From assembly GCF_030013205.1 (NCBI RefSeq), contig NZ_CP122649.1: a stretch of DNA of 64,000 nucleotides; one strand, 5' to 3'. Positions 43,030 to 46,000 of the stretch are shown here, piece after piece. The position numbers are program-made. Within the stretch, counting starts at the first letter, position 1. Each line of letters begins with the position of its first letter. The stretch is from Escherichia coli. Lineage in GTDB: Bacteria > Pseudomonadota > Gammaproteobacteria > Enterobacterales > Enterobacteriaceae.

Positions 43030-46000
43030 TAGTTGAGGGTTATCTGTCACAGATTTAAGGGTGGTTCGTCACATTTGATCTGGAAGGTTGAGGGTTATCT
43101 GTCACAGATTTAAGGGTGGTTCGTCACATTTGATCTGGAAGGTTGAGGGTGATTTGTCACAGAAAGGGCGGCTATTTGAGGGTGGTTCGTCACATTTGAT
43201 CTGGAAGGTTGAGGGTGATTTGTCACAGTTTTGCTGTTCCCTCCCTGGCATCCTGCGCTTACTCATGGTTTTTTGGCTGTAACCGGTAGTGGAGCCAGAA
43301 TTGAGGGCAATTTGTCATCCTATCCTGAGGGTAGTTTGTCACACTAGATTTTCCCCCTCTTCCCGGGTAATGGTGCCAACTTACTGATTTAGTGTATGAT
43401 GGTGTTTTTGAGGTGCTCCAGTGGCTTCTGTTTCTATCAGCTGTCCCTCCTGTTCAGCTACTGACGGGGTGGTGCGTAACGGCAAAAGCACTGCCGGACA
43501 TCAGCGCTATCTCTGCTCTCACTGCCGTAAAACATGGCAACTGCAGTTCACTTACACCGCTTCTCAACCCGGTACGCACCAGAAAATCATTGATATGGCC
43601 ATGAATGGCGTTGGATGCCGGGCAACCGCCCGCATTATGGGCGTTGGCCTCAACACGATTTTCCGCCATTTAAAAAACTCAGGCCGCAGTCGGTAACCTC
43701 GCGCATACAGCCGGGCAGTGACGTCATCGTCTGCGCGGAAATGGACGAACAGTGGGGTTACGTCGGTGCTAAATCACGCCAGCTCTGGTTGTTTTACGCG
43801 TATGACAGGATACGGAGGACGGTTGTGGCGCACGTATTCGGTGAACGCACGTTGGCCACGCTGGAGCGTCTTCCGGGCCTGCTGTCGGCCTTTGAGGTCG
43901 TGGTATGGATGACGGATGACTGGCCGCTTTATGAATCACGCCTGAAGGGAAAGCTGCACGTTATCAGCAAGCGTTACACTCAGCGCATTGAGCGGCATAA
44001 CCTGAATCTGAGACAGCATCTGGCAAGGCTGGGCAGGAAGTCACTGTCGTTCTCAAAATCGGTGGAGCTGCATGACAAAGTCATCGGGCATTATCTGACC
44101 ATAAAACACTATCAGTAAGTTGGAGTCATTACCCAGTAATGCGACAAATGCAATGAAAGAAGTAGCGAAAGTCCTTTTTTCAGCCCGAAGTGACCCGGAG
44201 CTCATGAAATTTATAATGGATTATATTAATAACCACAAACTGCATTGAAGGTAATTGCGGTGTATAAAACAAAGCCATTTTCGGCCAAAAAATGAGTCAG
44301 CTGAAGAAACGCTCGTTAATTCCGAATCCGTCCAGATTAATATGGCACACTGCTGGTGGAGGTTTTGGCAATCGGAAAAGTAACTTTTCACCCGTGTCTA
44401 ATCATCATCGTTTTATCAATCCGCTCAGTTACGGTATTAAAATCTCACGAAAAATAGTCTTCTTATCGAAGTGTCATGCTGTCTTCGCCCGATATAGTGA
44501 AGGTATGTATTCAGCGGGGGCACTGACATGCGAAAGAGCTATACCTATGGGATTCCTTTCGGACTCCATCGCGAAACCGGACGGTTTCTGGACATCACGG
44601 AAGTCAGCAGAGGAAGCGCATGCAACTGCATCTGTCCTGGGTGTCGTACGGATTTGATAGCCAGACAGGGAGAGGTCAAACTTTGGCACTATAGCCACAG
44701 TACCGATCTCCTCGGTGATTGTGATGGCCTGATGGAGGCGATTCGGGGAAAAATTATTGAAATTATTCAGGAAAAACAACTTCTAGGATTCCCGCATCTT
44801 CTGGCCGGTTACGATGGAGGCACGGTCCCACTTGATGAAGTCAGCGGCAGCGGAAGCATGTTCGGCGCAACGGCAGATCTGTTTGTGAAGGTGAACGATC
44901 TCTGCGTAGCTGTGTTTCTGGACATTGACCGCAGTGTGGCCGGGAAACTGACGTTCGACCATCTCCATGCCTCGGAGATGGTAGCTGCATTGCGCATTGA
45001 TCTGCCGGATATAGAATACGAAATCAGTCAGGTTCAGCTTGGTAGACGAGATGGTACCTACAGTGAATGTATCGAGAAAATCATCATTGATGCGACGGAG
45101 TCACGCGAATGGTTGTATCACCCCATGATGCAGGAACTGGGGACCGAGCCCCTGAAGGTATATGAGGGCCGCGAGCCAGCGGAAGCAGGACCACTTCTAC
45201 AACGCCTTTCCGACTGCCCCCTGAAGCTGCCGGACAACTTACCCCAGAGCATGAATGTGCTGATAAGAATGCAGCAGGCCACCATTGTGTGTTTGTGTCG
45301 GCTCACCGTCAGAGCTTCAGATATCGCCCAGACCGACGAATTCCCGCTGTTTATGCGTTACTTCCGGCTGCATTGCCTCGACACCAGTGAGCATGTGAAT
45401 TACGAGAAATTGCTTAACTGGCAGGACATGATTACAAAATCAAAGGAAGGGCAGTTACTAACGGTGGAGGAAAGGGATTATCTCCAGGAAATCGTCCGTA
45501 TTGGTCTCTATAACCACCGGCTTAAAAGTGTCTGCCTGACGGCCTGCGAAGACAGTAGGGTGGGAGAATCTGAAGGACCAAACAATTACTCATTGCTCTG
45601 AAGAGGGATGGGAAATTATGGGGGGACATGGAAGCGTGAAGAGAATAAACCTGTTCGCCTTAAACAGAAACAGGCTGTTCATTTCTTACATGTGAACAGA
45701 GTACCTATCATGATCAGACCGGTAATATAAATTGGCACAGCCATCAAAACCAATCCCAGTGGTTCTTCTTTGGTAAAAGCATCCTGAATAAGTCCGTCTT
45801 CGCTTAAAGCTAATGGACGCATACATTAGCATTAAGGCGTAAGGTCTAATAACTGGATCAGGAGTTTCGGATTTTTGCGCGGTAGGTGTGTTTGACCCTT
45901 TCAATTGTCGCAAGAGTTGAATTCCAGTAGCGTTCAGCGTCAGAACGATAAAGAGCAGCGATAGCCTCTATGGTTTTGGGGGAACAGGTTGCACTGCGAT

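What the first reader, a model, noticed from the sequence alone, without database searches (positions are those of the whole stretch)
44528..45601. CoiA-like zinc-ribbon protein as first gene after the IS1-flanked replicon
The N-terminal CNCICPGCRTDLIARQGEVKLWHYSH matches the CoiA competence-family signature. CoiA-family proteins are linked to DNA processing during transformation, and a plasmid homologue may act on incoming or recombining DNA. A perfect palindrome copy (44376) lies in its upstream region.
Basis: partly seen in the sequence, partly recalled or inferred. Interest (0 to 1): 0.35.

Follow-up and report, generated by a model that had tools for sequence, protein, structure and literature searches.

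The report
CoiA-like zinc-ribbon protein of IncHI plasmids
A conserved, uncharacterised backbone gene of IncHI resistance plasmids encodes a protein that shares its zinc-binding front end and a general nuclease-type fold with the competence protein CoiA, but it lacks CoiA's catalytic signature, so it is a distant cousin and not a plasmid copy of CoiA.

The parts
44528..45601 (+). Protein-coding gene, 357 aa (R27/pHCM1 WP_001232452.1; probably R27 ORF R0176)
   Evidence: ORF list and sequence. It is 100% identical to pHCM1 and R27. Homologues share the same start.
44549..44722 (+). N-terminal CoiA_N-type Cys/His zinc ribbon (aa 8-65). C36, C39, H57 and C65 are invariant in more than 100 relatives; C32, C34 and H54 are conserved in at least 90%.
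   Evidence: Pfam hit. Column statistics. Beta-hairpins in the model.
44723..45142 (+). Central restriction-endonuclease-like (PD-(D/E)XK) fold domain, aa 66-205, with a non-canonical 'active site' (M69, D117, F130, D132, D134, R135, D158) and an invariant W195-x-x-H198-P199 motif
45185..45562 (+). C-terminal helical bundle (aa about 220-345), found only in the hha-linked plasmid clade
44375..44389 (.). GAAAAGTAACTTTTC palindrome, 139 bp upstream of the ATG (core 151 bp). It is one copy of a plasmid-wide dispersed motif.
   Evidence: A copy lies 120-170 bp upstream of the homologous gene in L006, in IncHI2 L009 and, with one mismatch, in L002.
44471..44498 (+). Sigma-70-like promoter candidate (GTGTCA-16-TATAGT), ending 30 bp upstream of the ATG
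   Evidence: Consensus scan only; the number of sites found is no higher than in shuffles. Weak evidence.
40479..40691 (+). hha, the ancestral upstream neighbour of the gene
   Evidence: Annotation in pHCM1 and R27. hha directly precedes the homologue in L006 (164 bp), IncHI2 (360 bp) and Klebsiella IncHI1B (85 bp).
40943..44133 (+). IS1-repE(RepFIA-type)-IS1 module inserted between hha and the gene in IncHI1
   Evidence: Repeats, annotation, and absence of the module in IncHI2, IncHI1B and L006.

Best explanation
This is a conserved backbone gene of the IncHI plasmid family. Ancestrally it is the gene immediately downstream of hha, within the Tus, tyrosine recombinase, hha block. It encodes a three-domain DNA-interacting protein: a CoiA_N-type zinc ribbon, a PD-(D/E)XK (restriction-endonuclease-like) fold domain, and a clade-specific helical bundle that probably mediates oligomerisation or partner binding. 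It shares domain architecture and a remote common origin with CoiA, but it is not a CoiA orthologue. The canonical catalytic glutamates are replaced, and no acidic residue is conserved across the whole clade. I therefore think it most likely works as a nuclease-derived DNA-binding protein that recognises a DNA structure or sequence. It would serve vegetative plasmid housekeeping (replication, recombination or nucleoid organisation) at 37 C, with little or no classical Mg2+-dependent cleavage. Shown: gene, domains, fold class, residue replacements, synteny, distribution. Inferred: DNA binding, loss of catalysis, housekeeping role, identity with array probe R0176.
Confidence: 0.45

Rival explanations
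1. It is an active, structure-specific endonuclease that works like CoiA: a zinc finger plus a PD-(D/E)XK core that cuts D-loops or branched DNA. It would process plasmid recombination or replication intermediates next to the Tus-like terminator protein and the tyrosine recombinase.
For: It has the same three-part architecture as described for CoiA: an N-terminal zinc finger, a PD-(D/E)XK core and a C-terminal extension. The fold class is confirmed. An acidic/basic cluster (D117, D132, D134, R135, D158) is invariant in IncHI1, IncHI2 and close relatives. The neighbours deal with replication termination and site-specific recombination.
Against: There is no PF06054 or CoiA_C match. The beta3 Glu essential in CoiA is Phe130, and the helix-1 Glu of canonical relatives is Met69. 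D117 is Pro in two clade members and D132 is Asn in the Klebsiella type.
Confidence: 0.27
2. It is a defence or exclusion factor of the plasmid: a zinc-ribbon nuclease that attacks incoming phage or competitor-plasmid DNA.
For: Distant relatives sit in mobile-element accessory regions: next to an SMC/AAA_23 ATPase and a ResIII/RE_endonuc protein beside HipBA and an integrase, at a prophage end next to the integrase, and in islands with DndB/MrpR or AbiEii/NACHT/resolvase.
Against: There is no PADLOC match for the query or for 10 relatives, apart from sub-threshold zinc-ribbon hits to DruB. The IncHI clade has a fixed backbone position next to hha, not a variable defence island, and no conserved partner gene downstream. 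The catalytic residues are degenerate.
Confidence: 0.1
3. It is the protein that reads the plasmid-wide palindrome GAAAAGTWACTTTTC: a restriction-enzyme-like dimer that binds this site without cutting it and regulates its own gene through the upstream copy.
For: A copy of the motif sits 120-170 bp upstream of the gene in four diverged plasmids whose intergenic DNA is otherwise unalignable, and inside the 5' end or body of the gene in two more. L008 shares only the integrase, this gene and one small ORF (27% identity) with R27 in 17 kb, yet carries 3 copies. A short palindrome with a one-base centre is typical of dimeric restriction-endonuclease-fold proteins (my knowledge).
Against: L007 carries a full-length homologue (39% identity) but no copy in 17 kb. 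Many other IncHI backbone proteins co-occur with the motif. The only experimentally solved analogue, the dispersed IncC palindrome, is bound by a ParB/KorB-type protein.
Confidence: 0.07

Closest known systems
Competence protein CoiA (Streptococcus pneumoniae, Bacillus subtilis; Pfam CoiA_N PF25164 + CoiA PF06054 + CoiA_C PF25166; COG4469)
   Same: Both have an N-terminal CPxC...HxxH zinc ribbon, and this one matches CoiA_N above the cut-off. Both have a central domain of the PD-(D/E)XK fold class and a C-terminal extension of unknown role.
   Different: There is no sequence-profile match to the CoiA nuclease or C-terminal domains. CoiA's PD-EXQ beta3 glutamate corresponds to Phe here. CoiA is chromosomal, restricted to Bacillota, induced by competence and paired with RadA. 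This gene is on Enterobacterales plasmids, is linked to hha, and is more expressed at 37 C.
Uncharacterised 'CoiA_N + central domain' superfamily of mobile elements (about 270-350 aa proteins, many also hitting DUF7828 or DUF7830, often with a C-terminal zinc ribbon)
   Same: Homologous over aa 8-210, with E values from about 1e-27 to 1e-17 among the listed hits. The Cys/His pattern, D117, R135, W195 and HP motif are shared. Both are found on mobile elements.
   Different: The IncHI clade replaces the C-terminal zinc ribbon with a helical bundle of about 140 aa and has its own residue set (M69, F130, D132, D134). About 10% of the superfamily keep a canonical E...PD...E motif, which the IncHI clade lacks.
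Small PD-(D/E)XK nucleases and nuclease-like proteins (Hjc, TT1808/DUF820, VRR-NUC, Vsr, Cas4, the nuclease domains of AddA, RecB and Dna2, RAP domains)
Dispersed parS/KorB-type palindromes of IncC and IncP plasmids (for the upstream palindrome only)
   Same: These are also short perfect palindromes scattered over the backbone, inside genes and upstream of operons. IncC has 14 copies of TTTCACATGTGAAA bound by ParB, which I saw again in pSN254.
   Different: The IncHI sequence is different (GAAAAGTWACTTTTC). There are more copies (46 on R27) and none at the parAB promoter. The binding protein is unknown.

Membership tests
CoiA family (competence protein CoiA) | N-terminal C2H2-type zinc finger (Pfam CoiA_N, PF25164) | tested here: met
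   E=6.8e-07 and 29.1 bits against a cut-off of 26.3, residues 33-59. All 103 aligned relatives also match.
CoiA family (competence protein CoiA) | Central CoiA nuclease domain (Pfam PF06054) | tested here: not met
   No hit at E<=10 for the query. PF06054 is not among the top 25 families for the 103 relatives. It is also absent from 26 relatives scanned individually.
CoiA family (competence protein CoiA) | Catalytic Asp in beta2 and Glu in beta3 (PD-EXQ; D95 and E105 in S. pneumoniae CoiA) | tested here: not met
   The Asp is present (D117). The position opposite it in beta3 is Phe130, and the helix-1 Glu of canonical relatives is Met69. The alignment register carries some uncertainty.
CoiA family (competence protein CoiA) | CoiA C-terminal domain (PF25166) | tested here: not met
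   No hit. The C-terminus is a helical bundle with only generic structural matches.
CoiA family (competence protein CoiA) | Chromosomal gene of Bacillota in the competence regulon, acting with RadA on transformation D-loops | tested here: not met
   It is found on 2,739 plasmids, mainly of Klebsiella, Escherichia, Salmonella and Enterobacter, whereas CoiA is restricted to Bacillota. The function itself is not testable here.
PD-(D/E)XK (restriction-endonuclease-like) fold superfamily | Alpha-beta-beta-beta-alpha-beta core fold | tested here: met
PD-(D/E)XK (restriction-endonuclease-like) fold superfamily | Functional metal-binding catalytic site (E/D ... D ... D/E-x-K or a known variant) | tested here: inconclusive
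   Only D117 of the canonical set is present. An alternative cluster (D132, D134, R135, D158) is invariant in close relatives but not across the clade.
IncHI backbone gene family (R27 R0176-like, hha-linked) | Full-length homology including the C-terminal bundle, and a position downstream of hha within the Tus, integrase, hha block | tested here: met
   In IncHI1 the IS1-RepFIA-IS1 module lies between hha and the gene.
Known anti-phage defence proteins (PADLOC-DB) | Match to a defence-system protein model | tested here: not met
   No hit for the query. Relatives give only sub-threshold zinc-ribbon hits to DruB.

The most novel reading that the evidence does not exclude
The hha-linked protein is a nuclease-dead, restriction-enzyme-like reader of the plasmid-wide palindrome GAAAAGTWACTTTTC (46 copies on R27, conserved across IncHI1, IncHI2 and Klebsiella IncHI1B). 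It would mark or organise IncHI DNA, for example by recruiting or positioning Hha/H-NS or by distinguishing self from foreign DNA, and it would autoregulate through the conserved copy upstream of its own gene.
Probability: 0.07. Interest if true: 0.75.

Novelty: new variant of a known kind. Interest (0 to 1): 0.3.

Why it matters
IncHI plasmids (R27, pHCM1, IncHI2 mcr-1 and ter plasmids, Klebsiella IncHI1B/FIB hybrids) are major carriers of multidrug resistance, and most of their backbone genes have no known role. This work shows three things. First, this gene is a fixed partner of hha across the whole family, down to 35% identity. Second, it is a CoiA-like zinc-ribbon plus nuclease-fold protein with a remodelled active site. 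Third, the 'competence' label that some databases give its relatives is misleading. Together these points give a concrete, testable candidate for a DNA-handling function tied to the Hha/H-NS and replication-termination block. The value of the finding as originally stated is modest. The larger lead is the dispersed palindrome, which looks like an undescribed plasmid-wide protein-binding code.

Tried and rejected
1. NCBIfam, PADLOC and PHROGs scans of the protein gave nothing useful, as did NCBIfam on relatives that NCBI names 'CoiA family'.
2. Sequence searches of the PDB with the protein and with the domain profile gave no homologue.
4. The afdb50 library was not available, so I made no direct structural comparison with AlphaFold models of real CoiA.
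5. I tried to bridge to real CoiA through a canonical-motif relative. The 120 listed homologues (of 151 found) carried at most CoiA_N, some with Zn_ribbon_Top1, and none carried PF06054.
6. Literature searches for CoiA in IncHI plasmids, for the Pfam identifiers, for the motif sequence and for R0176 returned nothing relevant. One search failed on syntax.
7. GenBank AF250878, needed to verify the R0176 numbering, is not in the collections.
8. I rejected the idea that the motif is a coding repeat: copies lie in all three reading frames (and my frame arithmetic).
9. I rejected the idea that the motif is a polar, Ter-like element. Only the central base is asymmetric, and its orientation shows no convincing pattern on R27.
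10. I looked for a motif copy at the parAB promoter, as in IncC, and found none.
11. The 63-aa ORF upstream of the L008 homologue does not resemble Hha by eye; the formal comparison failed on coordinates.

Full report
**Observation.** The window is an IncHI1 plasmid. Bases 44100-45800 are 100% identical to pHCM1 of S. Typhi CT18 and to many IncHI1 records, and the protein is 100% identical to one encoded on R27. The ORF 44528-45601 (+) encodes 357 aa. In pHCM1 and R27 it is annotated 'hypothetical protein' (WP_001232452.1). Eleven full-length homologues (47-91% identity) all begin MRK... at the same position, which supports the start codon. Two direct IS1 copies (starting at 40943 and 43366, the second ending at 44133) bracket repE and its iterons. 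The gene is therefore indeed the first one after the IS1-flanked replicon. The palindrome GAAAAGTAACTTTTC is at 44375-44389.

**Profile test of the CoiA claim.** Pfam CoiA_N (PF25164) matches residues 33-59 at E=6.8e-07 and 29.1 bits, above the curated 26.3-bit cut-off. Nothing else matches. There is no CoiA nuclease domain (PF06054) and no CoiA_C (PF25166). NCBIfam and PADLOC give no hit, and PHROGs gives nothing meaningful. UniProt already names the protein 'Competence protein CoiA-like N-terminal domain-containing protein', and NCBI names some relatives 'competence protein CoiA family protein'.

**Family.** A word-indexed search found only 14 close clusters, all of at least 49% identity. 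An exhaustive profile search with their alignment found 4,556 cluster representatives at E<=1e-3. Only 7 of these reach E<=1e-30. Almost all the others match only aa about 8-210 and are 240-350 aa long. The zinc ribbon and the following 140 or so residues therefore form one widespread module. The C-terminal 140 or so residues are specific to the plasmid clade. All 103 aligned members hit CoiA_N, and most also give hits, mostly sub-threshold, to DUF7828 or DUF7830. PF06054 is absent from the 25 most frequently hit families and from 26 relatives scanned individually. Invariant across the superfamily are C36, C39, H57, C65 and W195. Conserved in at least 90% are C32, C34, P37, H54, D117, H198 and P199.

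**Structure.** AlphaFold2 with the 103-sequence alignment gave mean pLDDT 91.2. Residues 1-215 alone gave pLDDT 91.8 and pTM 0.89.
- The order of elements is beta-hairpins with the Cys/His cluster (aa 11-57), helix 67-83, strand 85-88, a three-strand insertion (98-111), the hairpin 114-122/125-132, strand 152-158, helices 159-170 and 178-188, and strand 193-197.
- This is an alpha-beta-beta-beta-alpha-beta core.
- The full-length searches were dominated by the C-terminal helical bundle and were uninformative.
- TT1808 is the structure through which Feder and Bujnicki originally assigned CoiA to this superfamily.
- I accept the fold-class assignment and note that the scores are weak.

**Active site.** CoiA is a PD-EXQ variant. 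D95 (beta2) and E105 (beta3) are essential in S. pneumoniae.
- About 10% of the present superfamily show a canonical-looking pattern: G-[LI]-E-T-A-[LI]-H in helix 1, PD at the start of beta2, and E-[IV]-x-V-T-H in beta3.
- In alignment A3 these positions correspond to M69, D117 and F130 of the query.
- The two-residue turn of the modelled hairpin (122/125) also places residue 130 opposite residue 117.
- The IncHI1/IncHI2 subclade has its own invariant set: D117, D132, D134, R135, D158 and E163.
- When the more distant hha-linked and plasmid members are added, D117 is Pro in two of them, D132 is Asn in the Klebsiella type, and D134, R135 and D158 vary. The seven Cys/His residues and W195 stay invariant.
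- This pattern fits a protein whose zinc ribbon and fold are under selection but whose classical metal-dependent chemistry is not. It does not exclude a relocated active site in the IncHI1/IncHI2 branch. One MAFFT run aligned the beta3 region differently, so the register is not certain.

**Genomic context.** In a metagenomic relative (59% identity) the order is DUF2913, Tus-like Ter protein, two ORFs, tyrosine recombinase (-), hha (+), then this gene 164 bp later. The same order holds in an IncHI2 plasmid (74% identity, 360-bp gap). It also holds in a Klebsiella IncFIB/IncHI1B plasmid (35% identity, 85-bp gap). A 49% relative has a Rep3-type gene between hha and the gene. In R27 and pHCM1, IS1-RepFIA-IS1 occupies that place.
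- The replicon module is thus a secondary insertion. Its outer flanks, GGACGAAAT and CAGTAATGC, are not a target duplication.
- The downstream neighbours differ between plasmid groups.
- tblastn finds homologues in 2,739 plasmid records: about 230 at 95% identity or more, about 1,120 at 60-80% (IncHI2 in the one record checked), and about 1,330 below 60%, of which the listed examples are almost all Klebsiella plasmids.
- A few IncHI2 records carry only aa 161-357, so the gene can be lost or disrupted.
- More distant members of the superfamily sit in other mobile elements. One lies beside an SMC-like ATPase and a helicase-nuclease in an island with HipBA and an integrase. One lies in a Photobacterium region of mostly small, uncharacterised genes. 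One lies at a prophage end next to the integrase. Others lie in islands with DndB/MrpR or AbiEii/NACHT.

**Expression.** In the R27 microarray study PMC7366339, hns is R0164, hha is R0182, the rep gene is R0179 and insB is R0177. By order, R0176 is therefore most probably this ORF. This is an inference, and I could not check the original numbering.
- R0176 reads 154 units at 25 C and 807 at 37 C, a 5.2-fold difference that is among the strongest for non-tra genes.
- It is 7.4-fold lower in the htdA mutant at 37 C, opposite to most R27 genes.
- If the ORF is instead R0175, it is still 2.2-fold higher at 37 C.
- Either way, the gene is not co-induced with the transfer genes at 25 C. This argues against a role specific to conjugative DNA entry and for a vegetative role.

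**The palindrome.** AAAGTNACTTT occurs 15 times in the window, against 0.09 expected from base composition. An order-4 Markov model expects 0.1 copies of AAAGT[AT]ACTTT, where 14 are observed. It is the top 11-mer by a wide margin.
- R27 has 46 copies (0.28 expected) but only 25 one-mismatch variants. The consensus is GAAAAGTWACTTTTC.
- Copies lie in all three reading frames, so this is a DNA-level signal and not a coding repeat.
- 37% of the copies lie outside ORFs of at least 100 aa, which make up only 19% of the sequence. Many are 60-300 bp upstream of operon starts, including two in the region upstream of mobI.
- The motif is also the top 11-mer in IncHI2 (7 copies in 41 kb). It is abundant in the backbone half of the Klebsiella IncHI1B locus (9 copies in 21 kb, none in the resistance region).
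- A copy lies 122 bp (L006), 151 bp (window), 170 bp (IncHI2) and, with one mismatch, 158 bp (L002) upstream of the ATG of this gene. The intergenic sequences are otherwise unalignable.
- In L008 a copy covers codons 4-7 of the homologue, and in the Klebsiella plasmid one lies inside the gene.
- IncC plasmid pSN254 lacks the motif but has its own dispersed palindrome, TTTCACATGTGAAA, 14 times in 50 kb. That sequence is the published IncC parS core, and the full 22-bp site is bound by a ParB/KorB-domain protein.
- By analogy, the IncHI motif is probably the binding site of a backbone-encoded protein. R27 has no copy at its parAB promoter, and I found no paper that mentions the sequence in IncHI plasmids.
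- Whether the CoiA_N protein is the binder is open. L008 shares only the integrase, this gene and one small ORF (27% identity) with R27 in 17 kb and has three copies. L007, with a 39%-identical homologue, has none.

**Verdict.** The protein resembles CoiA in architecture (zinc ribbon, PD-(D/E)XK fold, C-terminal extension). It fails four of the five testable defining features of the CoiA family, so I do not file it as CoiA. My favoured mechanism is a nuclease-derived DNA-binding protein of the hha/Tus/recombinase housekeeping block (confidence about 0.45). The rivals are an active structure-specific nuclease (about 0.27), a defence or exclusion nuclease (about 0.1) and a reader of the dispersed palindrome (about 0.07). 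As a finding it is a new variant of a known kind and of modest interest.

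Noticed in passing
window 3914, 5760, 8004, 9178, 11538, 13039, 18051, 18732 (with a degenerate inverted partner at 18718), 25195, 28949, 32539, 37246, 37383, 44377, 52070: This is a plasmid-wide dispersed palindrome with consensus GAAAAGTWACTTTTC. It has 15 copies in the window (0.09 expected) and 46 on R27 (0.28 expected), and it is the top 11-mer in IncHI1 and IncHI2 and abundant in the Klebsiella IncHI1B backbone. Copies lie in all reading frames, are enriched outside ORFs, and often sit 60-300 bp upstream of operon starts. No paper in the searched library mentions it. The closest analogue is the dispersed IncC parS bound by ParB/KorB. The binding protein in IncHI is unknown.
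   Followed up: partly
window 36900-37859 (Tus-like gene), motif copies at 37246 and 37383: The plasmid's Tus-like gene carries two copies of the palindrome inside its coding sequence. One copy is also present inside the homologous gene of L002 (1958), L006 (3694), IncHI2 L009 (16379) and Klebsiella L010 (14576), even though those proteins share only about 35-45% identity with the R27 protein where measured (L002, L006).
   Followed up: partly
window 40943-44133: The IS1-repE-IS1 module lies between hha and the CoiA_N gene only in IncHI1. Its outer flanks (GGACGAAAT on the left, CAGTAATGC on the right) are not a 9-bp target duplication, so it did not arrive by a single simple composite-transposon insertion, or the flanks have since been rearranged.
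   Followed up: partly
window about 38800-44100 compared with pHCM1 (L001): Gene coordinates upstream of the IS1/rep region are shifted by 11 bp relative to pHCM1, while the queried stretch 44100-45800 is collinear. There is therefore an 11-bp indel somewhere between the two. The window is not strictly identical to pHCM1.
   Followed up: no
L019 (IncC plasmid pSN254, 1-50000): The most frequent 11-mers all derive from TTTCACATGTGAAA (14 copies in 50 kb). This independently recovers the IncC parS sites published in 2024, which shows that a simple k-mer count finds such dispersed protein-binding palindromes.
   Followed up: yes
L003 3295-6954; L017 4432-6858; L018 3958-7491: Distant CoiA_N plus nuclease-fold relatives sit directly after an SMC/AAA_23 ATPase in an island with a ResIII/RE_endonuc protein and HipBA, directly after a prophage integrase, and after a DUF6538 protein near AbiEii and NACHT genes. 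This suggests that other branches of the superfamily may be defence or exclusion genes of mobile elements.
   Followed up: partly
R27 array data (PMC7366339) for R0175 and R0176, corresponding to window about 44528-46364: The two convergent neighbours behave oppositely in an htdA mutant. R0175 is 10-fold up at 25 C, and R0176 is 2.5-fold down at 25 C and 7.4-fold down at 37 C. R0176 is one of the few R27 genes that depend positively on HtdA.
   Followed up: no
window 45858-46364 (-): A convergent ORF of 168 aa (annotated as 158 aa, hypothetical) lies downstream. It is not conserved next to the homologue in IncHI2 or Klebsiella plasmids, and its function is unknown.
   Followed up: no
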